Assembly: GCA_030583785.1 (NCBI GenBank)
Contig: CP129475.1
Span: 768,845 to 832,844, forward strand
Direction: 5' to 3'
From: Candidatus Dojkabacteria bacterium
GTDB lineage: Bacteria > Patescibacteriota > Dojkabacteria > B142 > OLB20
Length of the DNA: 64,000 nucleotides
The notes under the pieces were generated by a model, which saw only the letters and a program-made list of their open reading frames with translations, was not told where the DNA came from and did no database searches. Positions 12,141-64,000 of this stretch are shown here, in pieces (the stretch's first letter is position 1; every line of letters starts with the position of its first letter). The position numbers and the translations under genes were made by a program.

Positions 12141-13154
12141 CTATTTTTCTGACAATTTAACTTTCTGAAGTTCTGATATTTTAGAGCTTCCTACAGAAAA
12201 CATAGCAATTCTAAATTCATTCTGCAACTTTTCTAATACAGATACACAGGCTTCGGTGCTTTCTAAAGCAGGAGCGAGCAGGGGCTTTGCTGCCGTTGCT
12301 AGTTTGGCTCCAAGCGCGACTGCCTTGGCTATATGAATACCATTTCGTATTCCGCCACCGGCAATAAGATTCAAACCTTTTATACTCCTATTAATCATTA
12401 GTGCTTCTGCGGTAGGTATCCCTTCTGCCTTGAAAAGATCTCCAAGGTCGTCTGTTCTTCTGTATCCTTCAACCCAAGACCATGAAGTTCCGCCCGTTCC
12501 AGAAACATCAATCCATTTAACACCTATCTCGGCAAGTCTTCGAGCTGTTTCATGATCGATTCCTGTTCCGACCTCTTTTATAACGATTGGTTTATGGACT
12601 TTAGGAATGATTTTTTCAAGCTTTGGAATTAGTTCCTTGAAATTCGTATCTCCTTCTGGTTGAACAGCTTCCTGAAGCGGATTAACATGAAGAAATATTC
12701 CATCAGCATTGACCGAGTCAATGATTCTGTTGATCTCATCTGCTCCATATCCGTAGTTAATCTGCACCAGCCCCATGTTGGCCAATAAAGGTACGCTGGG
12801 GCAGTATTTTTTGACATCAAAACTTTTGACTGATTCTGGTTTTCTAAGAATAACTCTCATGGAACCAAGGCCAAGAGCAACGCCCACCTCTTCTGCCGCT
12901 TCTGCAAGACGGCTATTGATTGAGTAACCTTTTTCTGGACCTCCCGTCATCGAAGAAATTATGAAGGGGAAAGATAGTTTGGCTCCAAGAAATGAAGCCG
13001 TTGTATCAATATCCTGCATATCGATTTCAGGTAAAGCCTTAAAAGGCAATCTATATTTATCAAACGATGACGGCAAAGGCTCAACATTTTTTTTGAGTAC
13101 AATGTTGATATGGTCTAGTTTTCGCTCATTTATGTTGTCGTCAAATTCTGCCAT
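12141..13154 (-). CDS. fni: Isopentenyl-diphosphate delta-isomerase, type 2 (FMN-dependent)
   Basis: ERKLDHINI…, FIISSMTGG, and the glycine-rich GTGGTSW / AGGGIRNG motifs of the IDI-2 TIM barrel. Confidence 0.85.
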   Translation of the reverse strand: MAEFDDNINERKLDHINIVLKKNVEPLPSSFDKYRLPFKALPEIDMQDIDTTASFLGAKLSFPFIISSMTGGPEKGYSINSRLAEAAEEVGVALGLGSMRVILRKPESVKSFDVKKYCPSVPLLANMGLVQINYGYGADEINRIIDSVNADGIFLHVNPLQEAVQPEGDTNFKELIPKLEKIIPKVHKPIVIKEVGTGIDHETARRLAEIGVKWIDVSGTGGTSWSWVEGYRRTDDLGDLFKAEGIPTAEALMINRSIKGLNLIAGGGIRNGIHIAKAVALGAKLATAAKPLLAPALESTEACVSVLEKLQNEFRIAMFSVGSSKISELQKVKLSEK

Positions 13155-52603: not shown

Positions 52604-53314
52604 ATGGCAAACATTTTTGTAATAAAGCTCGGCGGATCAATGCTATCTAAGGGAGAAAACAATATTTTTGATTTTGAATATCTGCGAGATCTTCGAAGTA
52701 CACTCGATCCTTTCATTCAAAGAGGCGATAAGTTTTTCATTGTTTTGGGTGGAGGTTACACAATGCGCAAGTATCGGGATCTTGCGATGGCTGCAGGTCT
52801 GCAAGAGAAGGAGCAACTTCATTGGATCGGAACAACTGTCAATGTGCTTCATGCAGAAATTGTAAGAGCTTATTATCATGATATCAGCGATGAAGGTGTG
52901 TTTAAGTACGAAGATTATTATCAGGATGCTAATCTGACAATCACAAAATCAATTAAAGTTGGGGGAGGTGGAAGGCCAGGTCATAGTGGTGATGTTGATG
53001 CAGTTCTTGCTGCCAACAAGGTTTCATCTAAGACAATCATTAGCTTGAAGAATGTTGATGGCGTCTACGACAAAGACCCGTCCAAAAATCCCGATGCAGT
53101 GCGTCAAGAAAAACTATCCTGGGATGAATACCTAGACATTATTGGTAATAAAGACGAACATGAACCCGGAGGAAACTATCCGATTGATCCTATAGCTTCC
53201 CGTATGTCCAAAGACAGCGACATTAGTTTTAATGTGCTTCATGGAAATGATTTGCAGAGTTTGTCTTCGGCTTTGAAGGGAGAAGAATTTACAGGTACAA
53301 TAGTAGGTAATTAA
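52604..53314 (+). CDS. pyrH: Archaeal-type UMP kinase (amino-acid-kinase fold)
   Basis: IKLGGS…, VLGGGYTMRKYRDLA, GGGRPGHSGDVDAVLAA, NVDGVYDKDPSKNPDA, and a YPIDPIAS block colinear with archaeal PyrH. Isopentenyl-phosphate kinase is the alternative call. Confidence 0.55.
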   Translation: MANIFVIKLGGSMLSKGENNIFDFEYLRDLRSTLDPFIQRGDKFFIVLGGGYTMRKYRDLAMAAGLQEKEQLHWIGTTVNVLHAEIVRAYYHDISDEGVFKYEDYYQDANLTITKSIKVGGGGRPGHSGDVDAVLAANKVSSKTIISLKNVDGVYDKDPSKNPDAVRQEKLSWDEYLDIIGNKDEHEPGGNYPIDPIASRMSKDSDISFNVLHGNDLQSLSSALKGEEFTGTIVGN

Positions 53315-53324
53315 AATAATAATT

Positions 53325-53735
53325 ATGAAGAATATTTTTAGGTTGGTTTTATATACTTTGTTATTCTTTACTTTTGTAGGTCTAATGCCAGGTATCGATG
53401 CCAAGAATGGACCTGTCGCGGTTATCTTGGCAGGCTTGGGGTTTTCTCTGATAATGGTATTCATCGGTGCAATTTTGGGTTTCTTCAAGTTTCCAAAAAA
53501 CTTTTGGGGAAAGTTTCTAATTGGTTCACTTATGTCGTTGTTGTATTTTGCTTTCCTTCATTTTGTACTTGTTGGATTTATTCAGTTTGGACCGGGCTAT
53601 ATCGGGGGTAGCGACTTTATCATCTTTACCTTACCTAAGCTTGTCGTTCTTGCCGATCCTATCGCGGTGTTAATTTTTAGTGCTATAACCCTTGTACTCT
53701 GTAGTATAATACTCGGGAACCTGTCCGAAGAATAA
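53325..53735 (+). CDS. DUF360 (YvlD / phage-holin-4-like) membrane protein
   Basis: 4 TM helices, with …LMPGIDAKNG… matching the LPGI…G loop of DUF360. Confidence 0.5.
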   Translation: MKNIFRLVLYTLLFFTFVGLMPGIDAKNGPVAVILAGLGFSLIMVFIGAILGFFKFPKNFWGKFLIGSLMSLLYFAFLHFVLVGFIQFGPGYIGGSDFIIFTLPKLVVLADPIAVLIFSAITLVLCSIILGNLSEE

Positions 53736-53752
53736 TTTATTTTTATAGAACA

Positions 53753-53995
53753 ATGGAATTATTAACTGTATTAAGTGTAGTTGAAATAATTATTAGCATA
53801 TTGCTAATAATCGCTATTGTTATGCAACAAAGAGGTTCCGGTCTGGGTACAATGTTTGGCGGATCCGGTGGCGAAAGTTACAGGTCAAAAAGAGGTGCAG
53901 AAGCAGTACTATTTAACGCTACAGTTTTTCTAATCTCACTATTTATAGTTGTCGGCTTGGCAATAGCAATCGTATCGGCCCAGTCCGGCGCATAA
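53753..53995 (+). CDS. secG: Preprotein translocase subunit SecG
   Basis: Two TM helices flanking the Gly-rich QQRGSGLGTMFGGSGG loop. Confidence 0.7.
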   Translation: MELLTVLSVVEIIISILLIIAIVMQQRGSGLGTMFGGSGGESYRSKRGAEAVLFNATVFLISLFIVVGLAIAIVSAQSGA

Positions 53996-54000
53996 GCTGA

Positions 54001-55824
54001 ATGTTTTTATTAAGACACATAGAACAGCTACTGTATTCAATTCGTGATTTTCTTTGGTCGTATCCAGAGAGGTTATTTATTGACAAACATTCGCTCTACA
54101 ATCAATTTCGTTCCACTTATCATGCACTGCGACCCTTAAGTCATTACCTGATGGTTGCTTTTATTACTTTTCTTGTAGTTACAATCACAGGAAGCAATGT
54201 TTCTGCCATGTTAAGGATCAACTCGGACACATTAATAGAAGGAGTTATTGTTGGTTTGGATGAGCAAGGAGATGTGCAAGAAATCAGTCGAATTAACCCT
54301 TTAATCAACTCAAATATTCAACTTGAACGAGATATTATTGAACTCATTTACGAAAGTCTTATCAGTGTTAACCAAAGTGGTGAAAGCACTGCTGCTCTTG
54401 CAGATTACGGTGAACTTGATAAAGGCAGGCTATACAGATTCAAATTAAGAGAGGGCATGCTCTGGTCAGATGGTCAACCAATTACTACTGCCGATGTAGA
54501 AGCTACTTTTAATCTATTGCAGCAGTTAGAAGGAGACCCAACAACGAGTACCTTGTATTCAAGGGCTGCAACTAAAATGGAGATCATTATTCTAGATGAC
54601 CTTACTTTCGAATTCAAATTGAACTCGGTAATTCCGGGTTTCTTTGAGGCTATAAGCTATAAAATTCTGCCTGCACACCTACTTTCCGATGTTAACACTG
54701 ACAACATTGTTACTTCAGATCCTCTAATTAATAGAAATCCGGTCGGAAGTGGCAGGTACAAAATCAATAGTGTTTCCGACGATACGATCACACTTTCGCA
54801 GAATCCAAATTACCATGGAGAGCACGGAAGTATTAAAAAAATTGTATTTAGAATGTATCCCGATGAATCCTCTGCCGTTGAAGCGCTTCGCGGTGGGCAG
54901 ATTCATACTTTGTCTGGAATCTCTACAGATTCGGTTCGCAATCTTCAGTCACAACAAAACATAGAGTTAATCGGAAGCAATATTATTTATAGTCAGTATT
55001 GGGCGTTGTTTTTCAACCTAAATGAAGAAGGACCTGCTGCTTTTGACGATGTAGCTGTGCGAAGGGCAATTTCTTCTGCCGTCAATCGTGATTTTGTCAT
55101 AGATAATCTTTTGGGCTATGCAACCGAAGCAATCGGGCCAATTCCAGAAAGCTCTTGGGCATATACTGCAGTTCCCACTTATCGTTTTGATAAAAGTAAA
55201 GCGTCAGAAATTCTTGAAGATGCTGGTTGGAGAAGGCCGGCTGGTTCAGAGATAAGAGAGAAAGACGGAAAGAAACTGGAATTTACGCTACTCTTAATAG
55301 AGAATTCCGACAGAGTAAAGATTGCTCAATCCATTCAAAAAGATTTGCTTGATGTTGGCATCAGAGTCAATGTCGTTTCTAAAGAAAAAAACAGACTTGT
55401 TTCAGAAAATCTGGTTCCCAGAGTTTTCGATATGATTTTATATGGAGTTCAAACATTCATCGATCCAGATAGATACGAGCTGTTTCATAGTTCGCAAATC
55501 GATCACCCAGGTTTGAATATTTCTTCCTATGCATCAAAAAATACTGTGTTAACGGTACAAGGTGGAGAACAAATCAGAATCCCTGAGGTCGATGACTTGC
55601 TAGATGACGCTCGAAGACTTGTCGACGAGAGTGATCGTAAGAAAAAATACGAGTTGTTTCAGCGAACTATCGGGTCAGAAGTGCCTGCAGTCTTCCTCTT
55701 TCACCCTGCCGAGGTGTATGCTGTTAACAAAAGGGTGCGAGGTGTATCTTTAGAGAGATTAAACTCCCTTGAGAACAGATTCGATAGTATTCGCGACTGG
55801 TTTATTTCGACAGAATCGTCTTGA
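54001..55824 (+). CDS. ABC transporter substrate-binding protein, family 5 (peptide/nickel type), membrane-anchored
   Basis: N-terminal TM LMVAFITFLVVTITG. The size and …ESSAVEALRGGQIH… fit SBP_bac_5. Confidence 0.55.
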   Translation: MFLLRHIEQLLYSIRDFLWSYPERLFIDKHSLYNQFRSTYHALRPLSHYLMVAFITFLVVTITGSNVSAMLRINSDTLIEGVIVGLDEQGDVQEISRINPLINSNIQLERDIIELIYESLISVNQSGESTAALADYGELDKGRLYRFKLREGMLWSDGQPITTADVEATFNLLQQLEGDPTTSTLYSRAATKMEIIILDDLTFEFKLNSVIPGFFEAISYKILPAHLLSDVNTDNIVTSDPLINRNPVGSGRYKINSVSDDTITLSQNPNYHGEHGSIKKIVFRMYPDESSAVEALRGGQIHTLSGISTDSVRNLQSQQNIELIGSNIIYSQYWALFFNLNEEGPAAFDDVAVRRAISSAVNRDFVIDNLLGYATEAIGPIPESSWAYTAVPTYRFDKSKASEILEDAGWRRPAGSEIREKDGKKLEFTLLLIENSDRVKIAQSIQKDLLDVGIRVNVVSKEKNRLVSENLVPRVFDMILYGVQTFIDPDRYELFHSSQIDHPGLNISSYASKNTVLTVQGGEQIRIPEVDDLLDDARRLVDESDRKKKYELFQRTIGSEVPAVFLFHPAEVYAVNKRVRGVSLERLNSLENRFDSIRDWFISTESS

Positions 55825-55870
55825 TTTGTTAATCTATATATCTAAGTATTTTAATTCTTAATTTGTAAAA

Positions 55871-56455
55871 ATGCCGATACTCATATTATTTTGCTTTGCA
55901 GCGCCAATCACTCTAGTTGTCGGCGCACTTGTCTTTGCTGTTGGTCTCTATAACGGCTTAGTAAGAGCCAAAGTTATTGTAGACGAGGCTTGGAGTGGTA
56001 TTGATGTTCAGCTTAAGCGAAGGTACGATCTTATCCCAAATATTGTTGAAACAATTAAAGGGTATGCCAAACACGAAAAGGAGACTTTCGAGAAAGTAAC
56101 CATGCTCAGAAGTCAGGCAATGCAGACATCTGATGTTGCAGAAAAGGGCAAACTAGAAAACCAACTTACACAAACATTAAAGTCCTTATTTGCAGTTGCA
56201 GAAAACTATCCAGAGCTTAAAGCTAACGAAAACTTTCTTAATCTGCAGGGTACTCTTAACGAGATTGAGAACGAAATTCAAGGGGCAAGAAGATATTACA
56301 ACGGTGCAGTTAGAGACTATAATACAAAAATAATGGTATTTCCAAACAATCTTATTGCCGGATTGTTAGGCTTTAAGTCTCGTGAATTCTTCGAAGCTGA
56401 TGAAGCCGAAAAAGAGAATGTAAAAGTTAGCTTCAGCGAAGAAGAAAAAGCTTAA
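55871..56455 (+). CDS. lemA: LemA family protein
   Basis: N-terminal TM and GLYNGLVRAKVIVDEAWSGIDVQLKRRYDLIPNIVETIKGYAKHE, the LemA consensus. Confidence 0.8.
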   Translation: MPILILFCFAAPITLVVGALVFAVGLYNGLVRAKVIVDEAWSGIDVQLKRRYDLIPNIVETIKGYAKHEKETFEKVTMLRSQAMQTSDVAEKGKLENQLTQTLKSLFAVAENYPELKANENFLNLQGTLNEIENEIQGARRYYNGAVRDYNTKIMVFPNNLIAGLLGFKSREFFEADEAEKENVKVSFSEEEKA

Positions 56456-56471
56456 CGCATTTTGTAATTTC

Positions 56472-58496
56472 ATGTTAGCCAATAAGGTAAAGCAGCTAAT
56501 AATTATCTTGGGTCTGGTTGCGACAATATTCTTTCTGCCGCAATCAGTCCAGGCCCAAGATCGTTCCTATGTATACGATTCAATCGATGTCCAATTAGAT
56601 GTCAATAAAGACTCTTCTGTAGTAGTTACAGAAAAAATTACTCAACGCTTCGATGGAGTATTTAGAGGCGTATTTAGAGAAATAACTCTTTCGGATTCTG
56701 TTGCTCTAGGCAAATGCAGAGTTAATCCTTCGCTTCAATGCGGTGGGTTCTCATTCATGGAACTACTTGGAGTATATGACAATAACAATCAGTTAATCTC
56801 TCCAAATAAGTACACTACCGAAACAATAACGAAATCCGGCGAACAGAGATTGAAGATCACTTGGGTATTTTCCGATTCAGGTAAAGATTTTGACAACGAA
56901 CTTTTCTCTTACACAATTAAATATAAGGTCTATGGAAGTCTCGGTTATTTCACTGATTATGACATGCTTTATTGGGATGCAATATTCCCTGATAGAGAGG
57001 TGATTGTTGAGAATGCAAGCGTTAGAATCACTTTTCCAGAGGACATAAGCTATAGCCAAGATAATCTGAGAATTCCAGACAGAGGATACAACTATACTGC
57101 CAGTTATAACGACTCAAATAATCAGTTAATTATTGAAACCCAAAGAATCTCGCCGTTTGAAGATTTTACAGTTATGCTAAGGTTTCCAAAGGGGATTATT
57201 GATGAATATGCCACCCTTCAGTTAGATATTAATCCTAAGCCTGATTTCATAACAATAAACGGAACAACTCTAAATGAACCATCTTCAGAGGTCAGTGGCA
57301 TAATTCCAGGACAAACAAATGTTCTTATAGGAGCTTCTGGCTATCAAGACTTCGAAACAAGTTTTCCTCTGCAGGCAAGTGAAACTAAATTGATAACTGC
57401 TAGCTTGCAACCTTCGCTTGCCACGATATTATTCTTCGCAAGTCTTGTAATTTGTAATCTACTGGGTTTGATTTTACTTCCTTTGATTTTGCTTCTTATT
57501 TACAGAGAGTATCGAACTAAAGGAAGAGATGTGGGCAGAAGTCCTGTAGTTGTTCCAGAATATTCTCCACCAGATAAGATACGACCCTATCTTCTTGGCT
57601 CGCTCAAAGATGAATCTGTCGATACGGTAGATATATCATCAACAATAATTGATGTTGCCTATAGAGGTTACATAAAAATTCGCGAATTTGATTCTGTATC
57701 TATACTTGGCATCAAGATTACAGCCAGAGAATATGAATTTCTTAAGTTAAAAGATTTTACAGACCTTACTCCGGTAGAACAAAAAATACTGACGGCAATA
57801 TTTGACGGAAAAGACAGGGTTACCACCAGCGATCTAAAAAACAGATTCTATTCAAAGATACCTGGAATAAATGATGCTATTTACGCAGAAATGGTCAATC
57901 GAACCTATTTCCCTAAAAGACCAGATAAAGTTAGGAGCAAATACAGAACTATCGGAATCACTATGGCAGTATTTGGATCAATTCTCGCCTCTGTCTTGGT
58001 CTTTTTGCCTTTTGCGGTCACAACAGCCTTTACTCTTGTTATTACGGGTATAGTTCTTATAGTTGTTTCCGGTAGCATGCCCGCAAAAACTAAACTCGGA
58101 TCCAAAATCTTCGACAAAGTTTTGGGCTTTAAGATGTACATGGAAACAGCAGAAAGATTTAGAGTACAGGATTTGACTCCCGAGACTTTTGAAAAGTATC
58201 TGCCATATGCAATGGTGTTTGGTATAGAAAATCAGTGGGCAGAAAGATTTAAGGACATATATACCGAAGCTCCGGAATGGTTTGAGGCCAGTTCTCAAGA
58301 AAGAATGCTCAATACAATTTATCTGGTTAATTCCCTTTCCAACTTTAGCAGAGTAACAAATACTTCTCTGACTTCGACCCCGGCAAGCTCATCTTCCGGA
58401 AGTGGTTGGAGTGGTGGGGGTTGGAGTGGAGGTGGCGGTTTTTCTGGAGGGTTCTCCGGCGGTGGAGGTGGCGGTGGCGGCGGCGGAGCATTTTAG
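56472..58496 (+). CDS. DUF2207 membrane protein (LemA partner) with a Gly-rich C-terminal tail
   Basis: Signal peptide, extracellular domain, TM helices, and a C-terminal SGWSGGGWSGGGGFSGGFSGGGGGGGGGG. Confidence 0.7.
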   Translation: MLANKVKQLIIILGLVATIFFLPQSVQAQDRSYVYDSIDVQLDVNKDSSVVVTEKITQRFDGVFRGVFREITLSDSVALGKCRVNPSLQCGGFSFMELLGVYDNNNQLISPNKYTTETITKSGEQRLKITWVFSDSGKDFDNELFSYTIKYKVYGSLGYFTDYDMLYWDAIFPDREVIVENASVRITFPEDISYSQDNLRIPDRGYNYTASYNDSNNQLIIETQRISPFEDFTVMLRFPKGIIDEYATLQLDINPKPDFITINGTTLNEPSSEVSGIIPGQTNVLIGASGYQDFETSFPLQASETKLITASLQPSLATILFFASLVICNLLGLILLPLILLLIYREYRTKGRDVGRSPVVVPEYSPPDKIRPYLLGSLKDESVDTVDISSTIIDVAYRGYIKIREFDSVSILGIKITAREYEFLKLKDFTDLTPVEQKILTAIFDGKDRVTTSDLKNRFYSKIPGINDAIYAEMVNRTYFPKRPDKVRSKYRTIGITMAVFGSILASVLVFLPFAVTTAFTLVITGIVLIVVSGSMPAKTKLGSKIFDKVLGFKMYMETAERFRVQDLTPETFEKYLPYAMVFGIENQWAERFKDIYTEAPEWFEASSQERMLNTIYLVNSLSNFSRVTNTSLTSTPASSSSGSGWSGGGWSGGGGFSGGFSGGGGGGGGGGAF

Positions 58497-58566
58497 CTTG
58501 CATGTCGATAAAAATCTGCTGTATGATACGATTGCCCCGTGATATTAATTAATATGGATTAATGGT

Positions 58567-59961
58567 TTGAAACGCTCAAGATTCCGATTATTCATTGCTG
58601 CGCTGGTGTTAATCCTTGCTGCAGTTATTGCTCTTCCTTCAATTGTTATTAAGGTCGGAGATGACAATATCCGTATTAGAGGATTTGATCCGTTAGATCT
58701 TAACTCTGCATTCGTAACACAAAGATTTGAATTACAACCATCATTAGATTTTCAAGAAGGTCAGGTGTCTGTATTTGATGTAAATCTTGCACCTATTCCC
58801 AGAAGTCAAAGACTTGAATATTTAACCAGGATTCGAAATATTGTTTTTACTCGAATTCAAAGATCCGGGCTTTCAGATTTTGAGCTTGATTCGCTTCATA
58901 ATCACGATATTGATTCTTATCAATTAATCTTACATTCTGCAACAAAAATTGATTCATCACTGTTGGCACTCCTCACCCGAACAGGCGAATTATCCGCCTG
59001 GATAAACGATCCAAATATCGATAGAAATCTTGCAACAGATGAAGATCTACAAGATCCGTTTTATGGGAGAAATCAAACTGGAATAAGCAACGAAGATATT
59101 GAATCTGCAACAGTAATTTCTGATTCCAGGATATATTTGTTCGATCCATCTAGGCCAAGTAACTATGGTATCAGACTTAATTACAGAGAAGAGTCTGCTC
59201 CAATGTATGTTGCTGCAGCTCAGCAAAGCTCAAACTCAACTTCTCCGATTCTTTATGCGATAGATAATGAACCAATTGCTTTTCAGTCACCAGGTCAAAT
59301 ATATGACTTCCTAAATCCTGGAAGGACATCTCTTCTGGTTACACTTGCAGATGACAGTTATCGAGTAAATGCAATCATAGCTTCTGTATTAAGTACGCCT
59401 AAACTTGATTTTTCCGTTTCATTAATTAGTTCAGAAACAGTTGCTCCCAGGTATGGAAGCATAACCCTGCAGATATTGCAGGTGTCAGGGTTAGTACTAC
59501 TTACCCTAATGATTGCGCTGTTATCTTTCTGGTATAAAAAACACGCCAGGTTTATTGCTGTAGCTTTAATCAGTTTATCGATTATCAATTTGGCGCTAGC
59601 CAAGGTATTCGGTTTAACTCTAAGTCTGTCTATGATATTAGGTCTCTTGGTGGGCTATTTTGCCTTTGTACTGTTTCTAGTTAATGCAATTAGGTATATC
59701 CAAGACAAGACAGCTAATGGCATCACAAAAGAGGAGCTTCAACAAGTTTACAGTGACTCGCTTGGATCAATTAGAAATTCATCGATAATAATCATTTTCC
59801 TTATTCTTGTCAGCCAAACCTATGGCATTATAAGTGTTGTCCATTTTGGAAACGGACTAGGATTTACACTCGTCAGTGCAATTCTAACCTTAATGATAAT
59901 AATAAGACCTCTACTGCCGGAACTTTATCTGAGACCAAGCAAGAAAAATGAAAAGAATTAA
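58567..59961 (+). CDS. secD: SecD-like protein-export membrane protein
   Basis: N-terminal TM, a large extracytoplasmic domain, and a C-terminal 6-TM bundle, followed by a SecF-like gene whose start overlaps. Confidence 0.5.
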   Translation: MKRSRFRLFIAALVLILAAVIALPSIVIKVGDDNIRIRGFDPLDLNSAFVTQRFELQPSLDFQEGQVSVFDVNLAPIPRSQRLEYLTRIRNIVFTRIQRSGLSDFELDSLHNHDIDSYQLILHSATKIDSSLLALLTRTGELSAWINDPNIDRNLATDEDLQDPFYGRNQTGISNEDIESATVISDSRIYLFDPSRPSNYGIRLNYREESAPMYVAAAQQSSNSTSPILYAIDNEPIAFQSPGQIYDFLNPGRTSLLVTLADDSYRVNAIIASVLSTPKLDFSVSLISSETVAPRYGSITLQILQVSGLVLLTLMIALLSFWYKKHARFIAVALISLSIINLALAKVFGLTLSLSMILGLLVGYFAFVLFLVNAIRYIQDKTANGITKEELQQVYSDSLGSIRNSSIIIIFLILVSQTYGIISVVHFGNGLGFTLVSAILTLMIIIRPLLPELYLRPSKKNEKN

Positions 59962-60862
59962 TAAAACACTGGTAATAATTATTGTTCATCTAACTGTCCT
60001 GATAGCTGCTGTATTTGCAGTTTACAATTACGACTTTAAGCAGGGAATTGACTTTGATAATTCCCGAGCTGTCCAAATTTCGTTCGAGTCAGAAGTAAAC
60101 AGAACTGAACTGGCAGATTTTGTAAACACAACTCTTCCCTACGAAAGATTTGATAATAGCGGGAATAGAGTTTTCAGAGTTTACTATCAAAACGCTGAAG
60201 ATGGAAAAGTCGACGACCTTATTGAAAGAATACAAGAAAGGTTCGGAACGATAACCGAGACTGTTAAATACAACAGTAATCCCGGGAACCTATTCATCTT
60301 CGCCCAACAAAGAATCGAGGCTTCCGTTTGGATATACTTACTTGGAGTTGTAATCTTTGTGTTGTTTACATTCCGTAAAAAAGGATTCTTAATAATTGAT
60401 TTGCTTGAATACATGTTGGCCCAGCTGGCCGGGTTCATGTGGTTCGCTGCAATCTTGGTTCTACTTACTGTTGTATTGAACGAGCTGGGTGTTGCAATTT
60501 CTTATTGGTATCTAAGCGGACTTATCGCTGCCTCAGCTATAGCTTTCCTGTTTATGCTTATAGTTATTACCAGACTTCTTTCTCGGCAACAGACAGAAAA
60601 ACCTAATTCACTTTTTGAAGAATACACGCTTTTACTAAAAGAAGAGAATAACGATTTCTTTAAATCGGGATTACTAGCTTCTACAATATTTCTTGGGTTA
60701 GTAATACTGCCATATCCTCAGTTGACAACTCTATTCGTTGTCTTATTATCGGTTCTGCTTGCTTTAGTTATGCAGACTACGGTTGTTCAATCCTTGTTGA
60801 TGTCGATTCATCTGCTTTCAACAAAGATTAAATTGAACAAAAGAATTAGAGGGAGATGGTAA
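59948..60862 (+). CDS. secF: SecF-like protein-export membrane protein
   Basis: N-terminal TM, then …KQGIDFDNSRAVQISF (the SecF GxDFxGG-like start of the periplasmic domain), then a 6-TM bundle. Confidence 0.5.
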   Translation: MKRINKTLVIIIVHLTVLIAAVFAVYNYDFKQGIDFDNSRAVQISFESEVNRTELADFVNTTLPYERFDNSGNRVFRVYYQNAEDGKVDDLIERIQERFGTITETVKYNSNPGNLFIFAQQRIEASVWIYLLGVVIFVLFTFRKKGFLIIDLLEYMLAQLAGFMWFAAILVLLTVVLNELGVAISYWYLSGLIAASAIAFLFMLIVITRLLSRQQTEKPNSLFEEYTLLLKEENNDFFKSGLLASTIFLGLVILPYPQLTTLFVVLLSVLLALVMQTTVVQSLLMSIHLLSTKIKLNKRIRGRW

Positions 60863-61359
60863 TCGAAGTATTAAGGCCTCAAGATTTTGAGGATTTTTAT
60901 CAGCTCTTTTCTAAGTTGATGTTAGAAGCCTTCCCCACATTCTCTCCAAGGCTAAAAAAGCACTTTCTGGATAAAGATTACAATCCTCAAGTACTTCGTT
61001 ACTGGATAGATAATAACATGCGAAAAGTTCTAATCGCACGAGATTCAGGAAAATCTATAGGTTTCATTATCGGAGATAATTCATACGGAGGAGTATCTTT
61101 TATCAGTTGGTTGGGAGTTGTCGAGCATTACCGAGGCTTAGGGATTGGATCAAAACTTTTAAATACTTATGAAGATTTTGCAATATCCTGTGGGTCGCAT
61201 CTTCTCGAACTGTTTACTTTCGAAAAAGTAAAGCCATTTTACCAAAGACATGGGTTCTCAGAAATAGGTAGAAGAGAAGAAGGTTACTATGGACAGAAGA
61301 ACCTAATTATGAACAAAACTATTGGTAAATGGAACGAGAATTATCTTGATAGAAGATAA
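60856..61359 (+). CDS. GNAT family N-acetyltransferase
   Basis: Acetyl-CoA-binding motif VVEHYRGLGIGSKLL (R/QxxGxG/A). Confidence 0.75.
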   Translation: MVIEVLRPQDFEDFYQLFSKLMLEAFPTFSPRLKKHFLDKDYNPQVLRYWIDNNMRKVLIARDSGKSIGFIIGDNSYGGVSFISWLGVVEHYRGLGIGSKLLNTYEDFAISCGSHLLELFTFEKVKPFYQRHGFSEIGRREEGYYGQKNLIMNKTIGKWNENYLDRR

Positions 61360-61836
61360 TTAATTAGCCTCGATAAGCTCACTGTAGAAACGGGATATTA
61401 TTTTAACCCTTGAGTCTAAGACATCAATTCTTAATCGATAGTTGGTACCAAGAAATAGTTCTGACGGAAGACTAAACTTACCTTCTTCTGAAGCTATTAT
61501 GTTTATCTCTTTTCCTTCTAGAGGAATGAATCCAAGTTCTGTTTCAAGTTCGATCGTACCAATACAAGTATATTCTTGGCAGATATCTGCAGTTTCATCT
61601 TCGATTGATGTTGTGATAATCAATTCTTCTGAATTAATGCTAATTGTTTCTGTTTGGATTGTTATTTGATCTGTTGGAGGTTGCTTGATTTCGACTGCTT
61701 CGCTAAGCTCTTCTTGTTCGGTGTTACCTGTTTTTTGTAAATTTCTGGCTTCAATGCCGGCCAGTGCAAATACTGCGATAATAATTACCAGAACAATGAG
61801 CAAACGAGTTCTTTTTATTTTGGATTCTTCCTGCAT
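61360..61836 (-). CDS. Hypothetical membrane-anchored acidic protein
   Basis: N-terminal TM RLLIVLVIIIAVFALAGI. Its stop and the GNAT stop share the palindrome TAATTAATTA. Confidence 0.35.
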   Translation of the reverse strand: MQEESKIKRTRLLIVLVIIIAVFALAGIEARNLQKTGNTEQEELSEAVEIKQPPTDQITIQTETISINSEELIITTSIEDETADICQEYTCIGTIELETELGFIPLEGKEINIIASEEGKFSLPSELFLGTNYRLRIDVLDSRVKIISRFYSELIEAN

Positions 61837-61858
61837 TTTTTAATTATATTCTAGGCAA

Positions 61859-62569
61859 TCAAACTGAGGCAATAATGTAATAATTACTGTCTCCTGATCT
61901 ACCATCAGCTTTGTAGGTTTTCTCAATCTTCAATTCTGCCTGAGTCATTAACTGCTCAGCTTCTTCTTGCGTAAAGCTATGAACATAGCGCACCAGCTTT
62001 TCGTCGTTATTCCAGGTTAATAGATAATCTCCTGTCTCGCATTCTTCTTCTTTTATGCCAACGGTGCTGAAGGGAAGTCTACGATCTAATAGCTCCGGCT
62101 GAGTATCAAGGTTCCAGAAAGTGGCAAGCATTTTCCCTTTATTGGTTAGAAGTTGCGCAGATTTAGTAATTAGCTCCGCTCTTTTTTCTGATCCTGGAAT
62201 ATGATGAAGTACTGCAATAAGAGCTACAAAATCGAATTTCTTATTTAGTTTCAGATCTAAGGTTAAATCTTTCTGAAGGAATTCTGTGTTTGGATTTTTT
62301 TCTTCGGCAATTTTCAGCAGTTGCTTTGAACTATCGACTCCTGTAGCTGTTAAATCGGGATAATACTTTCGTACATACTCAATGAATCTGCCGTTACCAC
62401 AGCCAAGATCAATTAACGCCTTAGGGTCGAAAGGCAAATCCTTGAAATATTCAATTACCCTTTGCCATCCAGCCCACGGAATTCCCCTAGATTTTGAGAA
62501 ATCGTCAGCCGTGTCTATATAGAACTTTTTGTTCAGATCAAGTAAGACTTTTCTTGTATTTGCATTCAT
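61859..62569 (-). CDS. Class I SAM-dependent methyltransferase. The track ORF extends to 62617; the internal start at 62569 avoids overlap with elp3.
   Basis: Motif I LIDLGCGNGRF and motif II FDFVALIAVLHH. Confidence 0.7.
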   Translation of the reverse strand: MNANTRKVLLDLNKKFYIDTADDFSKSRGIPWAGWQRVIEYFKDLPFDPKALIDLGCGNGRFIEYVRKYYPDLTATGVDSSKQLLKIAEEKNPNTEFLQKDLTLDLKLNKKFDFVALIAVLHHIPGSEKRAELITKSAQLLTNKGKMLATFWNLDTQPELLDRRLPFSTVGIKEEECETGDYLLTWNNDEKLVRYVHSFTQEEAEQLMTQAELKIEKTYKADGRSGDSNYYIIASV

Positions 62570-62590
62570 GATGATACAATTATACAGCTT

Positions 62591-64000
62591 ATGAGCAAAT
62601 ACAAATTCGATCCACAACCATATCTAAAAGAAATTCAATCTATTTGCGAATTAGTTGAAAGCAAAGATAAATGGAGACATAACAGTCTGCAAAGAATTCT
62701 TACAAAATACCCCCGAGACGGAAAAGCGATCTTCAGTAGAGATCAATTAGTTATCGGTTATCGCCAATTGATCTCTGCCGGAGTAATGGCAGAGAACAAA
62801 CTTGTGATGGATCGAATTCGTATGAAGCCTACAAGAACCTTGTCAGGTTTAGCAACAGTAACGGTTCTAACTAAGCCTTTTCCTTGTCCTGGTAAATGCA
62901 TTTTTTGCCCGAACGATGTACGCATGCCGAAAAGCTATTTAGCAAGCGAACCAGGGGCGCAAAGGGCCGAAAGAAACAGTTTCGATCCATATCTACAAAC
63001 TTATAATCGATTACTTGCACTTCACAATACGGGTCATAATGTGGAGAAGGTTGAGTTAATAATTCTTGGTGGAACTTGGTCGTTCTATCCAAGGTCTTAC
63101 CAGATCTGGTTTGTGAAGAGGTGCTTTGACGCACTTAATGACTTTTTAAAGGTTGATAATCGTGAACTCGTTAAGGCACAAAACTCATTTGTTGAAGCCG
63201 ATCGGATTCCAAGAATAGATGAGAAAGGCCGAGCCAGATCCTATAACGAAATTGTTCATGCAGTTAGCAGAGGAGACTCAGCAAAACTTCTTTCAGAAGG
63301 TGAGAGTGCAGATATTAGAGAATTATCTAAGGCACACAAGATAAACGAAACAGCTATTTGTAGATGCGTGGGCCTTGTTATCGAAACAAGACCCGATTTC
63401 CTTGACGAAGAAGAGGTAACATTTACTCGTAGTTTAGGAGCAACTAAAATACAAATTGGAATCCAGAGTTTGAACGATAAGGTATTAGGATTAAATAAAC
63501 GCGGCCACAACGCTGAATCTACAAAGAAAGCGATCTCGCTTCTCAGAAGAGCCGGATTTAAAATTCATGCCCACTGGATGCCTAACCTTTATGGCGCAAC
63601 GCCAAAAATCGATATTGAGGATTTTAAAAAATTGTGGGAGAGCGATGTGGCTCCGGACGAGCTCAAGCTTTATCCAACCTCAATTATTGCCAATACCGAA
63701 CTCTTCAATCTTTATAAACAAGGATCTTATAAACCATATACTCAAGATGAGTTGCTCCATATCTTAAAAGAAACTATGGCCATGACTCCTAGATACTGCA
63801 GGCTAACCAGGGTGATTAGAGATATTCCTTCTACAGATATAGTTGCAGGAAATAAAAAAACTAATTTCAGACAAATTGCCGAAAGGGTTCTGGAAGAGGA
63901 AGGTAGGGCCTGTAAGTGCATCAGGTGTCGTGAGGTTAAGTCGGGCATGATTTATCCTGAAAACGAACTTAGCTTCAAGGAGCTGAAGTATATGACAACA
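62591..64000 (+). CDS. elp3: ELP3-family radical-SAM enzyme (tRNA wobble-uridine modification), partial. It runs off the 3' edge and is absent from the ORF track.
   Basis: CPGKCIFCPND cysteine cluster. …DPYLQTYNRLLALHNTGHNVEKVELIILGGTW… and …GLVIETRPDF…IQIGIQS…GFKIHAHWMPNL…DELKLYPT… are colinear with eukaryotic and archaeal Elp3 radical-SAM domains. Confidence 0.8.
   Translation, partial: MSKYKFDPQPYLKEIQSICELVESKDKWRHNSLQRILTKYPRDGKAIFSRDQLVIGYRQLISAGVMAENKLVMDRIRMKPTRTLSGLATVTVLTKPFPCPGKCIFCPNDVRMPKSYLASEPGAQRAERNSFDPYLQTYNRLLALHNTGHNVEKVELIILGGTWSFYPRSYQIWFVKRCFDALNDFLKVDNRELVKAQNSFVEADRIPRIDEKGRARSYNEIVHAVSRGDSAKLLSEGESADIRELSKAHKINETAICRCVGLVIETRPDFLDEEEVTFTRSLGATKIQIGIQSLNDKVLGLNKRGHNAESTKKAISLLRRAGFKIHAHWMPNLYGATPKIDIEDFKKLWESDVAPDELKLYPTSIIANTELFNLYKQGSYKPYTQDELLHILKETMAMTPRYCRLTRVIRDIPSTDIVAGNKKTNFRQIAERVLEEEGRACKCIRCREVKSGMIYPENELSFKELKYMTT

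What the first reader, a model, noticed from the sequence alone, without database searches (positions are those of the whole stretch)
62591..64000. Bacterial ELP3 homologue (radical-SAM tRNA wobble-uridine modification enzyme) hidden from the ORF track
The open reading frame runs off the 3' edge, so the track shows only short spurious ORFs here. The translation is colinear with the Elp3 radical-SAM domain. ELP3 is universal in eukaryotes and archaea but sporadic in bacteria. Its presence, together with an archaeal-type PyrH and type-2 IDI, hints at an archaeal/eukaryote-like flavour to this genome's information-processing set.
Basis: partly seen in the sequence, partly recalled or inferred. 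Interest (0 to 1): 0.5.

Follow-up and report, generated by a model that had tools for sequence, protein, structure and literature searches.

The report
Bacterial Elp3 with Trm9-like partner gene
The open reading frame at the window's right edge is a genuine, complete Elp3 tRNA wobble-uridine modification enzyme of a WS6/Dojkabacteria bacterium, and it sits back-to-back with a Trm9-like methyltransferase, a pairing conserved across several bacterial phyla that points to a eukaryote/archaea-style (m)cm5U pathway in bacteria.

Summary
Window 62591-64000 (+) is an uninterrupted 470-codon ORF that runs off the edge. Truncated, it already passes the curated Elp3 model (TIGR01211, 373 bits; cutoff 350). 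The source is 'candidate division WS6 bacterium OLB21' (JYPD01000025.1). That contig supplies the missing 117 residues, which carry the KAT/GNAT domain (full length 587 aa, about 500 bits). The Fe-S cysteine triad, the Zn CxCxxC motif and all DmcElp3 functional residues are conserved, and the predicted fold matches only Elp3 structures. The public label 'coproporphyrinogen III oxidase' is wrong.

The protein is not a recent archaeal import. It belongs to a distinct bacterial Elp3 clade found in at least 598 species-level genomes of several phyla. The clade carries a specific 15-92 aa insertion and a folded, basic N-terminal region. DmcElp3 is closer to archaeal Elp3 than to this clade.

The divergent neighbour (61862-62569, minus strand, 21 bp away) is a Trm9-like SAM methyltransferase, with eight of nine Trm9 functional residues conserved. 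It lies directly upstream of Elp3 in 43 of 75 evaluable loci. The likely pathway is U34 to cm5U (Elp3) to mcm5U (methyltransferase). The chemistry is inferred, not shown.

The parts
62591..64000 (+). Elp3 gene, codons 1-470 of 587. The gene continues 354 nt beyond the window (public contig L001 11216-11569).
   Evidence: No stop in 470 codons. TIGR01211 373 bits truncated and 499-503 bits full length, cutoff 350. PDB Elp3 hits at E 1e-82 to 1e-109. Fold matches Elp3 only.
62591..62824 (+). Clade-specific N-terminal region of Elp3 (residues 1-78). It is basic (net charge +6) and predicted to be helical and folded. DmcElp3 has no counterpart.
   Evidence: AF2 helices at 9-24, 32-39 and 50-62, with 10-residue block-mean pLDDT of 86-94 over residues 11-70. 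Charge. Conserved in 19 homologues. PDB alignments start only at residue 61 or later.
62885..62908 (+). Radical-SAM [4Fe-4S] cysteine motif C99-x3-C103-x2-C106 (CPGKCIFC)
   Evidence: Invariant in alignment A1. CX3CX2C is present in 80 of 81 sequences checked (80 loci plus the window). The spacing matches DmcElp3 (CPGKCIYC), not MinElp3 (CPHGKCIFC).
63146..63319 (+). Clade-specific insertion in the radical-SAM domain (residues 186-243, 58 aa), absent from the aligned archaeal (Min) and Dehalococcoides (Dmc) Elp3 and bridged by about 3 residues there
   Evidence: The PDB alignments break at query 185/244, bridged by about 3 residues in Min and Dmc. All 80 loci carry 15-92 extra residues here. 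The model is of low to moderate confidence here, block-mean pLDDT 56-70.
63653..63892 (+). Radical_SAM_C domain (residues 355-434)
   Evidence: PF16199 at 7.8e-20, 71.2 bits, cutoff 31.9.
63911..63928 (+). Zn-binding CxCxxC motif (C441, C443, C446; CKCIRC) in the rSAM-KAT linker
   Evidence: Aligned to CRCIRC of both Min and Dmc Elp3. The motif is described as Zn-binding and conserved in bacterial and archaeal Elp3 in PMC6367351.
61859..62569 (-). Trm9-like class-I SAM methyltransferase gene (236 aa plus stop), divergent from Elp3
   Evidence: Best PDB hit is YlTrm9 5cm2_Z by sequence, by family profile and by Foldseek. HHalign against fungal Trm9 gives 99.7% probability, E 5.5e-26. The reciprocal search is specific. 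The gene is conserved next to Elp3 in 43 of 75 loci and in the closest relatives.
62570..62590 (.). 21-bp spacer between the two divergent start codons
   Evidence: Read directly from the sequence. Both starts are supported by homologue N-termini. The equivalent spacer is 27-28 nt in the closest relatives and mostly 10-150 nt elsewhere. No sigma-70-like site falls in the spacer.

Best explanation
Window 62591-64000 encodes the first 470 of 587 residues of a stand-alone bacterial Elp3. The enzyme binds a [4Fe-4S] cluster through C99/C103/C106 and cleaves SAM to a 5'-deoxyadenosyl radical. Its C-terminal KAT domain, just beyond the window edge, binds acetyl-CoA. Together the two domains attach a carboxymethyl group to C5 of the wobble uridine (U34) of tRNAs, giving cm5U. 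The gene is transcribed divergently from a Trm9-like SAM-dependent methyltransferase only 21 bp away. That enzyme most likely methyl-esterifies the cm5U carboxylate to mcm5U, so the two genes form a two-step wobble-uridine module. Shown here: the identity, domain completeness and conserved catalytic residues of Elp3; the sequence relationship of the neighbour to Trm9; and the cross-phylum conservation of the gene pair. Inferred: the chemistry (cm5U, then mcm5U), the tRNA substrates, and whether the methyltransferase needs a Trm112-like partner.
For: Elp3 identity. TIGR01211 scores 373 bits truncated and 499-503 bits over model positions 41-520 of 522 for the full-length P0001/P0002. P0002 is 100% identical to the window over the shared part. 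GNAT Pfam domains hit the C-terminus. The top PDB hits are all Elp3: Min 369 bits, Dmc 343, eukaryotic 279-294. The AF2 model (pLDDT 83.6) matches 11 Elp3 structures at E 1e-33 to 1e-40 and TM 0.82-0.90, and the next hit, HemN, is at 1.7e-6.

Elp3 functional residues. DmcElp3 K77, K193, E386, H388, R411 and Y441 (PMC6367351) correspond to K153, K324, E514, H516, R539 and Y568. All are conserved in this protein, and all but R539 are invariant in 19 homologues. The Fe-S triad and the Zn CxCxxC motif are present.

Methyltransferase. YlTrm9 is the top PDB hit by phmmer (1.6e-11), by family profile (2.7e-16, and the only hit aligned through the C-terminal motifs) and by Foldseek (4.5e-15). HHalign against 19 fungal Trm9 gives 99.7% probability and E 5.5e-26 over 203 columns. 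Eight of the nine residues that affect ScTrm9 activity (PMC4678810) are conserved: R29, D72, H115, H116, W145, W168, R241 and N271. YlTrm9 searched against all 2,588 ORF segments of the window plus 80 loci hits only this family, with the window copy best at 1.5e-13.

Linkage. 43 of 75 evaluable Elp3 loci have the methyltransferase divergent and directly upstream. They come from Patescibacteria, Chloroflexota, Acidobacteriota, Myxococcota/'Deltaproteobacteria', Verrucomicrobiota and 'Ca. Multivorans'. It is the only neighbour conserved that widely. The closest relatives are syntenic.

Precedent. Elp3 and Trm9 genes cluster in Sulfolobus, and HvoTrm9-Trm112 makes mcm5U in Haloferax (PMC6144793).
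Against: No biochemical data exist for any member of this bacterial clade. The 2020 Elongator review says there is no direct evidence for xcm5U34 derivatives even in Dehalococcoides (PMC7663514).

The Trm9 residue Y243 is not conserved: it is Val in the window and Cys in most of the family. N271 aligns only across a 6-residue loop insertion.

31 of 75 evaluable Elp3 loci, including the six other Dojkabacteria, have no such methyltransferase within 6 kb. No Trm112 homologue was looked for or found. The KAT domain itself lies outside the window and is taken from a public contig that is 99.87% identical, not from the window.
Confidence: 0.85

Rival explanations
1. The gene is a HemN-like oxygen-independent coproporphyrinogen III oxidase, or another HemN-family radical-SAM enzyme, as the public record annotates it.
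For: NCBI names P0002 and P0007 'coproporphyrinogen III oxidase'. There are weak HemN/HemW/HemZ-family hits of 22-34 bits.
Against: Those hits are 6- to 25-fold below their curated cutoffs (205-653 bits), while Elp3 passes its own. The C-terminal GNAT domain and Elp3-specific residues are present. By Foldseek, HemN is at E 1.7e-6 and TM 0.28-0.36, against Elp3 at 1e-40 and TM up to 0.90. Newer NCBI records of relatives are named Elp3.
Confidence: 0.01
2. Elp3 is genuine, but the neighbouring methyltransferase is functionally unrelated or acts on another target: a different tRNA or rRNA position, a small molecule, or Elp3 itself. In that case the bacterial end product is cm5U or ncm5U, not mcm5U.
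Against: The divergent adjacency is conserved across at least five phyla and is the only widely conserved neighbour. The specific Trm9 N-terminal (FYxxxAxxFxxTR) and C-terminal (DxxxxW, RYxH, D...N) motifs surround the methyl-transfer site and are invariant or nearly so. The reciprocal hit is specific. JGI's pipeline independently names two homologues TRM9 and ALKBH8.
Confidence: 0.3
3. The Elp3 is a recently acquired archaeal gene, part of an 'archaeal flavour' of this CPR genome, rather than a bacterial lineage.
For: The best-scoring solved structure is archaeal MinElp3, at 369 bits against 343 for Dmc. The same window holds a PyrH that scores best on the archaeal model.
Against: Over 441 shared columns the window protein is 43% identical to Min and 41% to Dmc, but 56-63% identical to the 80 bacterial loci. 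Within-clade identity is at least 48%, and clade-to-Min is at most 45%. The clade forms one group on the NJ tree, which roughly follows phyla. It shares the CPGxC spacing and the lack of the 5-residue post-motif insert with Dmc, not Min, and has its own insertion and N-terminal domain. Part of Min's higher score comes from extra N-terminal overlap.
Confidence: 0.07

Closest known systems
DmcElp3 (Dehalococcoides mccartyi Elp3; PDB 5L7J, 5L7L, 6IA6)
   Same: Stand-alone bacterial Elp3 with an rSAM plus KAT architecture. Same CPGKC-x2-C Fe-S motif spacing, same Zn CxCxxC motif, and all acetyl-CoA-pocket residues (K77, K193, E386, H388, R411, Y441) conserved. Fold TM 0.89-0.90 normalised to the target.
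   Different: Only 41% identity over 441 core columns, and Dmc is closer to archaeal Min (52%) than to this clade. Dmc lacks the roughly 78-residue N-terminal region and the 58-residue insertion. No Trm9-like neighbour has been reported for Dmc, and this was not examined here.
Archaeal Elp3 (Methanocaldococcus infernus MinElp3; PDB 6IA8, 6IAD, 6IAZ)
   Same: Highest-scoring solved relative (369 bits). Monomeric stand-alone enzyme with an extended basic N-terminus that is needed for tRNA binding (PMC6367351). The window protein also has a basic N-terminal extension.
   Different: Min has Cx4Cx2C spacing and a 5-residue insert after the motif, and lacks the 58-residue insertion. Its N-terminus is described as flexible, whereas here it is predicted to be folded. 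Identity is 43%.
Eukaryotic Elongator Elp3 (PDB 6QK7, 8ASV, 8PTX)
   Same: Same two-domain catalytic core and fold. The best query-normalised TM, 0.77, is to human Elp3 bound to tRNA. Same predicted reaction.
   Different: Eukaryotic Elp3 works inside the Elp1-6 complex and lacks the three Zn cysteines (PMC6367351). Sequence scores are lower, at 279-294 bits.
Trm9-Trm112 (Yarrowia lipolytica, PDB 5CM2; S. cerevisiae Trm9; human ALKBH8 methyltransferase domain; Haloferax HvoTrm9)
   Same: The neighbour shares the Trm9-specific N-terminal helix motif, the HH dyad, both Trp residues, the RYxH strand and the terminal D...N. HHalign gives 99.7% probability. Genomic coupling to Elp3 is also reported for Sulfolobus (PMC6144793).
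   Different: ScY243 is replaced by Val or Cys. There is a 6-residue loop between the D270 and N271 equivalents. Identity is only 22-28%. Trm112 dependence is unknown, and a 2017 review found no bacterial homologues of Trm112-partner methyltransferases (PMC5372719).
CmoM (bacterial cmo5U34 to mcmo5U34 methyl-ester-forming methyltransferase)
   Different: The CmoM model scores 25 bits against a cutoff of 366, and only in one family member. It is not among the profile-to-PDB top hits. It has no known link to Elp3.

Membership tests
Elp3 (TIGR01211; tRNA uridine(34) carboxymethyl radical SAM/GNAT enzyme) | Scores above the curated family cutoff of 350 bits | tested here: met
   373 bits for the 469-aa window fragment. 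503.2 bits for P0001 and 498.9 for P0002 at full length.
Elp3 (TIGR01211; tRNA uridine(34) carboxymethyl radical SAM/GNAT enzyme) | Radical-SAM core with three cluster-binding cysteines | tested here: met
   PF04055 and PF16199. C99, C103 and C106 are invariant. The CX3CX2C motif is in 80 of 81 sequences checked, the 80 loci plus the window.
Elp3 (TIGR01211; tRNA uridine(34) carboxymethyl radical SAM/GNAT enzyme) | C-terminal KAT/GNAT domain with the acetyl-CoA motif (QHxGxG) and a YY pair | tested here: met
   This lies outside the window. The continuation on the public contig (L001 11216-11569) encodes ...QHLGLGRRLL...REYYKKNGY. PF00583 scores 24.3-24.4 bits against a cutoff of 20.7. It aligns to the Min and Dmc KAT domains.
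Elp3 (TIGR01211; tRNA uridine(34) carboxymethyl radical SAM/GNAT enzyme) | Functionally validated DmcElp3 residues K77, K193, E386, H388, R411 and Y441 | tested here: met
   They correspond to K153, K324, E514, H516, R539 and Y568. All but R539 are listed as invariant in 19 homologues. The residue list is from PMC6367351.
Elp3 (TIGR01211; tRNA uridine(34) carboxymethyl radical SAM/GNAT enzyme) | Zn-binding Cys triad in the linker (prokaryotic Elp3) | tested here: met
   CKCIRC at residues 441-446 aligns to CRCIRC of Min and Dmc.
Elp3 (TIGR01211; tRNA uridine(34) carboxymethyl radical SAM/GNAT enzyme) | The overall two-domain Elp3 fold | tested here: met
   Foldseek's top 11 hits are all Elp3 (E 1e-33 to 1e-40, TM 0.82-0.90), followed by a gap of more than 27 orders of magnitude. 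The model's pLDDT is 83.6.
Elp3 (TIGR01211; tRNA uridine(34) carboxymethyl radical SAM/GNAT enzyme) | Catalyses cm5U34 formation on tRNA | not testable with these tools
   This needs biochemistry or tRNA mass spectrometry. No window tRNA genes are available to inspect.
Trm9 / ALKBH8-type tRNA (cm5U34) carboxyl methyltransferase | Closest characterised relative by sequence, reciprocally | tested here: met
   5cm2_Z is top by phmmer and by profile. HHalign against 19 fungal Trm9 gives 99.7% probability, E 5.5e-26. YlTrm9 hits only this family among 2,588 ORFs.
Trm9 / ALKBH8-type tRNA (cm5U34) carboxyl methyltransferase | SAM-binding motif I and the acidic residue D72 (ScTrm9) | tested here: met
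   D54-x-GCGNG is invariant, and D79 (the D72 equivalent) is nearly invariant.
Trm9 / ALKBH8-type tRNA (cm5U34) carboxyl methyltransferase | Substrate and catalytic residues R29, H115, H116, W145, W168, R241 (ScTrm9 numbering) | tested here: met
   They correspond to R28, H122, H123, W152, W186 and R194, which are invariant or nearly invariant in 37 and 47 homologues. The mapping is and the residue list from PMC4678810.
Trm9 / ALKBH8-type tRNA (cm5U34) carboxyl methyltransferase | Y243 (ScTrm9); the Y243A mutant keeps about 10% activity | tested here: not met
   The aligned position is V196 in the window and Cys in most of the family.
Trm9 / ALKBH8-type tRNA (cm5U34) carboxyl methyltransferase | N271 (ScTrm9), proposed to read the uracil ring | tested here: inconclusive
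   N229 aligns to it in HHalign, but only across a 6-residue insertion after the D270 equivalent. It is nearly invariant in A2 but below 90% in A3.
Trm9 / ALKBH8-type tRNA (cm5U34) carboxyl methyltransferase | Fold closest to Trm9 | tested here: inconclusive
Trm9 / ALKBH8-type tRNA (cm5U34) carboxyl methyltransferase | Obligate Trm112 activator partner | not tested
   No Trm112 search was made. No small conserved neighbour was seen among ORFs of at least 100 aa, but a roughly 60-aa Trm112 would have been missed by that threshold.
Trm9 / ALKBH8-type tRNA (cm5U34) carboxyl methyltransferase | Functional or genomic coupling to Elp3 | tested here: met
   43 of 75 evaluable loci have it divergent and adjacent. 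Synteny holds in the closest relatives.
HemN / coproporphyrinogen III oxidase (the public annotation) | Scores above the curated HemN-family cutoffs | tested here: not met
   The best HemN-family scores are 22-34 bits against cutoffs of 205-653.
MnmL/YtqA (TIGR01212), the second-best radical-SAM family | Scores above the cutoff of 180 bits | tested here: not met
   61.8-66.3 bits.

The most novel reading that the evidence does not exclude
A distinct bacterial lineage of Elp3 has its own N-terminal domain and radical-SAM insertion. Together with a Trm9-like methyltransferase that may work without Trm112, it forms a two-gene module producing mcm5U-type wobble uridines in many Patescibacteria, Chloroflexota, Acidobacteriota, Myxococcota and Verrucomicrobiota. 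This is a modification pathway so far documented only in eukaryotes and archaea, and reviews have stated that bacteria lack homologues of Trm9. In these bacteria it would replace or supplement the canonical MnmE/MnmG route.
Probability: 0.5. Interest if true: 0.6.

Novelty: new member of a known kind. Interest (0 to 1): 0.4.

Why it matters
For the window itself, this corrects a public mis-annotation ('coproporphyrinogen III oxidase', with the N-terminus truncated by a homopolymer indel) to a full-length Elp3.

More broadly, Elongator reviews still describe bacterial Elp3 as confined to Dehalococcoides (PMC7663514), and a Trm112 review states that bacteria lack relatives of Trm9 (PMC5372719). 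The data here show three things: a large and separate bacterial Elp3 clade, that the Dehalococcoides enzyme used as 'the' bacterial model is really archaeal-like, and that a Trm9-like gene is physically coupled to Elp3 across phyla.

This makes the question 'do bacteria make xcm5U wobble modifications?' directly testable, because some of the carrier groups may include cultivable members. It also offers small, stand-alone Elp3/Trm9 pairs for mechanistic work on a disease-relevant enzyme.

Tried and rejected
I rebuilt the alignment from homologous-protein hits.

4. The Biopython NJ bootstrap timed out. I replaced it with pairwise-identity separation and a nearest-neighbour resampling.

5. My first regex for measuring the insertion failed and was redone on a MAFFT alignment.

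6. An early frame error for the methyltransferase was corrected to 61862-62569.

7. My first mapping of ScTrm9 D72 to D54 was wrong. HHalign shows D72 corresponds to D79.

8. The promoter/terminator scan found nothing in the 21-bp spacer, and fewer promoter-like sites than in shuffles.

9. There are no tRNA genes in the window.

10. No other conserved neighbour was found, and no Elp3-methyltransferase fusion was seen among the listed hits.

11. NCBIfam and Pfam have no specific model for the methyltransferase.

12. Papers PMC5018218 (the Dmc structure) and PMC4479141 (archaeal Elp3 activity) are not held. Literature searches for a bacterial Elp3-Trm9 pairing found nothing. That is absence in the searchable library only.

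13. The rivals HemN, MnmL/YtqA and CmoM were rejected on curated cutoffs.
Full report
**Observation.** From the ATG at 62591 to the last base of the window (64000) there are 470 sense codons and no stop. The ORF tool does not list the frame because it runs off the edge. It shows only short out-of-frame or antisense ORFs of 41-87 aa there. The start is supported by the nearly identical N-termini of homologues.

**Source and missing C-terminus.** The fragment alone passes the curated Elp3 model: TIGR01211 at 373 bits against a cutoff of 350. It also hits PF04055 and PF16199. A database search found two proteins:
- P0002 is 100% identical over the shared part. It is 522 aa, from 'candidate division WS6 bacterium OLB21', contig JYPD01000025.1, and is annotated 'coproporphyrinogen III oxidase'.
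- P0001 is 99% identical and 587 aa long.

The contig was fetched as L001. Window 52791-64000 equals L001 1-11215 at 99.87% identity. The two differ by ten substitutions and five one-base homopolymer-length differences. One of these lies at window 62636, which explains why the public gene call starts at Met66. Another, at 62181, splits the upstream methyltransferase in the public record. The window version keeps both ORFs intact.

L001 11216-11569 supplies the remaining 117 residues plus the stop codon, giving a 587-aa protein. That tail contains QHLGLGRRLL and REYYKKNGY. It scores as GNAT (PF00583) and raises the TIGR01211 score to about 500 bits over model positions 41-520 of 522.

**Elp3 membership.** The PDB sequence search returns only Elp3: MinElp3 at 369 bits, DmcElp3 at 343, and eukaryotic Elp3 at 279-294. 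The residues shown to matter in DmcElp3 are K77, K193, E386, H388, R411 and Y441 (PMC6367351). They align to K153, K324, E514, H516, R539 and Y568, and nearly all of these are invariant in 19 homologues.

The Fe-S triad C99/C103/C106 and the Zn CxCxxC motif (441-446) are present. An AlphaFold model (pLDDT 83.6) matches 11 Elp3 structures at E 1e-33 to 1e-40 with TM 0.82-0.90. The next hit is HemN at 1.7e-6. HemN-family and MnmL/YtqA models score far below their cutoffs, so the public annotation is wrong.

**What kind of Elp3.** A scan of one genome per GTDB species used two clade-typical peptides, KIHAHWM and LTKP[FY]PCPG. The best 80 come from these groups:
- Patescibacteria: Dojkabacteria, Saccharibacteria, WWE3, Woesebacteria and Paceibacterota
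- Chloroflexota: Anaerolineae, Aggregatilineales, Phototrophicales and Thermoflexus
- Acidobacteriota
- Myxococcota/'Deltaproteobacteria'
- Verrucomicrobiota
- Bacteroidetes
- 'Ca. Multivorans'

Identity over 441 columns shared with Min and Dmc:

| Comparison | Identity |
|---|---|
| Window vs the 80 loci | 56-63% |
| Within the clade | at least 48%, median 62% |
| Clade vs Min | at most 45% |
| Clade vs Dmc | at most 43% |
| Min vs Dmc | 52% |

Min is Dmc's nearest sequence in 200 of 200 column resamples. An NJ tree shows the clade as one group that roughly follows phyla. So the standard 'bacterial' model enzyme (Dmc) is archaeal-like, while the window's protein belongs to a separate and much larger bacterial lineage.

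The lineage has three distinguishing features:
- A 15-92-residue insertion in the radical-SAM domain, 58 residues here (186-243). Min and Dmc bridge this point with about 3 residues.
- A conserved, basic (net +6), confidently folded helical N-terminal region of about 78 residues, which Dmc lacks.
- CX3CX2C spacing, as in Dmc and unlike Min's CX4CX2C.

[quoted passage not shown] NCBI's pipeline already names relatives in Dojkabacteria as Elp3. The Elp3 identification itself is therefore a new member of a known kind.

**The neighbour.** A 236-aa class-I SAM methyltransferase is encoded on the minus strand at 61862-62569, with its stop codon at 61859-61861. Its start codon is 21 bp from that of Elp3. 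Several lines of evidence tie it to Trm9:
- Its best solved relative is Yarrowia Trm9 (5cm2_Z) by phmmer, at 1.6e-11.
- A 37-member family profile also ranks Trm9 first, at 2.7e-16. Trm9 is the only hit aligned through the C-terminal substrate-binding motifs.
- Foldseek on a pLDDT-96 model ranks Trm9 first at 4.5e-15.
- Profile-profile comparison with 19 fungal Trm9 proteins gives 99.7% probability and E 5.5e-26 over 203 columns.

That comparison also maps the residues shown by mutagenesis to matter in ScTrm9 (PMC4678810):

| ScTrm9 residue | Window residue | Status |
|---|---|---|
| Y18 (modelled near the cm5U carboxylate; not mutated) | Y17 | conserved |
| R29 | R28 | conserved |
| D72 | D79 | conserved |
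| H115 / H116 | H122 / H123 | conserved |
| W145 | W152 | conserved |
| W168 | W186 | conserved |
| R241 | R194 | conserved |
| N271 | N229 | aligned, but only after a 6-residue loop |
| Y243 | V196 (Cys in most of the family) | not conserved |

The conserved residues are invariant or nearly invariant in the family.

A reciprocal search with YlTrm9 against all 2,588 ORF segments of the window and the 80 loci hit only this family, and the window copy was the best hit. JGI's pipeline names two homologues TRM9 and ALKBH8, while NCBI calls them generic class-I methyltransferases. No NCBIfam model reaches its cutoff.

**Linkage.** Of the 80 Elp3 loci, 75 have enough upstream sequence to judge. In 43 of them a homologue of this methyltransferase lies divergently and directly upstream of Elp3, mostly 10-150 nt away. 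One locus has it elsewhere, and 31 have none within 6 kb. The 43 span all the phyla listed above except Bacteroidetes. The methyltransferase is the only neighbour conserved that widely.

The two closest Elp3 relatives, at 67-68% identity and including WS6 OLB20, are syntenic with the window. Their order is methyltransferase (-), 27-28 nt, Elp3 (+), then RpiB and Rpe. The six other Dojkabacteria loci belong to a short-insertion subclade that mostly lacks the adjacent methyltransferase. It is adjacent in 3 of the 16 short-insertion loci, against 40 of the 64 long-insertion sequences, a count that includes the window itself.

**Mechanism.** By homology with archaeal and eukaryotic systems, Elp3 would make cm5U34 from acetyl-CoA and SAM, and the Trm9-like enzyme would esterify it to mcm5U34. 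Two precedents exist: an Elp3-Trm9 gene cluster in Sulfolobus, and mcm5U made by HvoTrm9-Trm112 in Haloferax (PMC6144793).

For bacteria, a 2017 review stated that no homologues of the Trm112-partner methyltransferases could be detected (PMC5372719). Searches of the held literature found no report of a bacterial Elp3-Trm9 pair. The chemistry, the substrates and any Trm112 requirement are inferred, not shown.

**Side claims.** The PyrH at 52604-53314 scores 138.6 bits on the archaeal-type model (cutoff 158) and 68.1 on the bacterial one. The type-2 IDI at 12141-13154 is confirmed, at 373.7 bits against a cutoff of 281.3. On my own knowledge, type-2 IDI is common in bacteria, so it says little about an 'archaeal flavour'. 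RecA, RNase Y and Fmt in the window are ordinary bacterial genes.

**Verdict.** The finding is correct, and as stated it is an ordinary, though publicly mis-annotated, member of a known family. Its added value is the context: a large, distinct bacterial Elp3 lineage and a conserved Trm9-like partner. Together these make a bacterial xcm5U pathway a concrete, testable hypothesis.

Noticed in passing
window 54834, 59943, 60953, 62181, 62636 (L001 2045, 7155, 8166, 9395, 9851): The window differs from public record JYPD01000025.1 by five one-base homopolymer-length differences, with the public record one base longer each time. In the public gene calls, each coincides with a split or shortened gene: SBP_bac_5 is in two pieces, the 464/304-aa pair overlaps, the GNAT is 113 aa instead of 167, the methyltransferase is split, and the Elp3 N-terminus is lost. 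The window version gives intact ORFs, so the public assembly probably carries homopolymer errors.
   Followed up: partly
window 52604-53314 (+): This UMP kinase scores best on the archaeal-type PyrH model: TIGR02076 at 138.6 bits, below its cutoff of 158, against 68.1 bits on the bacterial model.
   Followed up: partly
window 12141-13154 (-): Type-2 (FMN-dependent) isopentenyl-diphosphate isomerase, TIGR02151 at 373.7 bits against a cutoff of 281.3.
   Followed up: partly
window 61360-61836 (-); L082 1748-2242; L083 1802-2248: A 158-aa protein with a hydrophobic N-terminus and no Pfam hit lies 22 bp downstream of the Trm9-like gene on the same strand. A gene of similar size (148-164 aa, no Pfam hit) occupies the same position in the two closest relatives. 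It may be co-transcribed with the methyltransferase. Its function is unknown, and homology between the three was not tested.
   Followed up: no
window 60856-61359 (+); L082 454-945; L083 1-343: A stand-alone GNAT acetyltransferase of 167 aa lies just upstream of the methyltransferase/Elp3 pair and is also present in both closest relatives.
   Followed up: no
L003, L012, L021, L034, L049, L050 compared with the window: On the NJ tree the window's Elp3 does not group with the six other Dojkabacteria Elp3s. Those belong to a short-insertion (15-24 aa) subclade shared with Saccharibacteria, and it mostly lacks the adjacent methyltransferase (adjacent in 3 of 16, against 40 of the 64 long-insertion sequences). 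This suggests two Elp3 sublineages within Dojkabacteria, or transfer between CPR groups.
   Followed up: partly
L002, L035, L054, L057, L078: MAGs labelled 'uncultured Pseudomonadales' carry Elp3 genes that nest among the Patescibacteria sequences on the tree. These record titles are probably taxonomic mislabels.
   Followed up: no
L001 11607-16126 (just beyond the window's right edge): Downstream of Elp3 the contig carries a 311-aa protein with no family hit. It is followed by a non-oxidative pentose-phosphate cluster: RpiB, Rpe, a transketolase split into N- and C-terminal genes, and transaldolase.
   Followed up: no
P0072: One Elp3 homologue is 715 aa, about 125 aa longer than the rest. The extra region was not examined. 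It is too short to be a fused Trm9-like domain.
   Followed up: no
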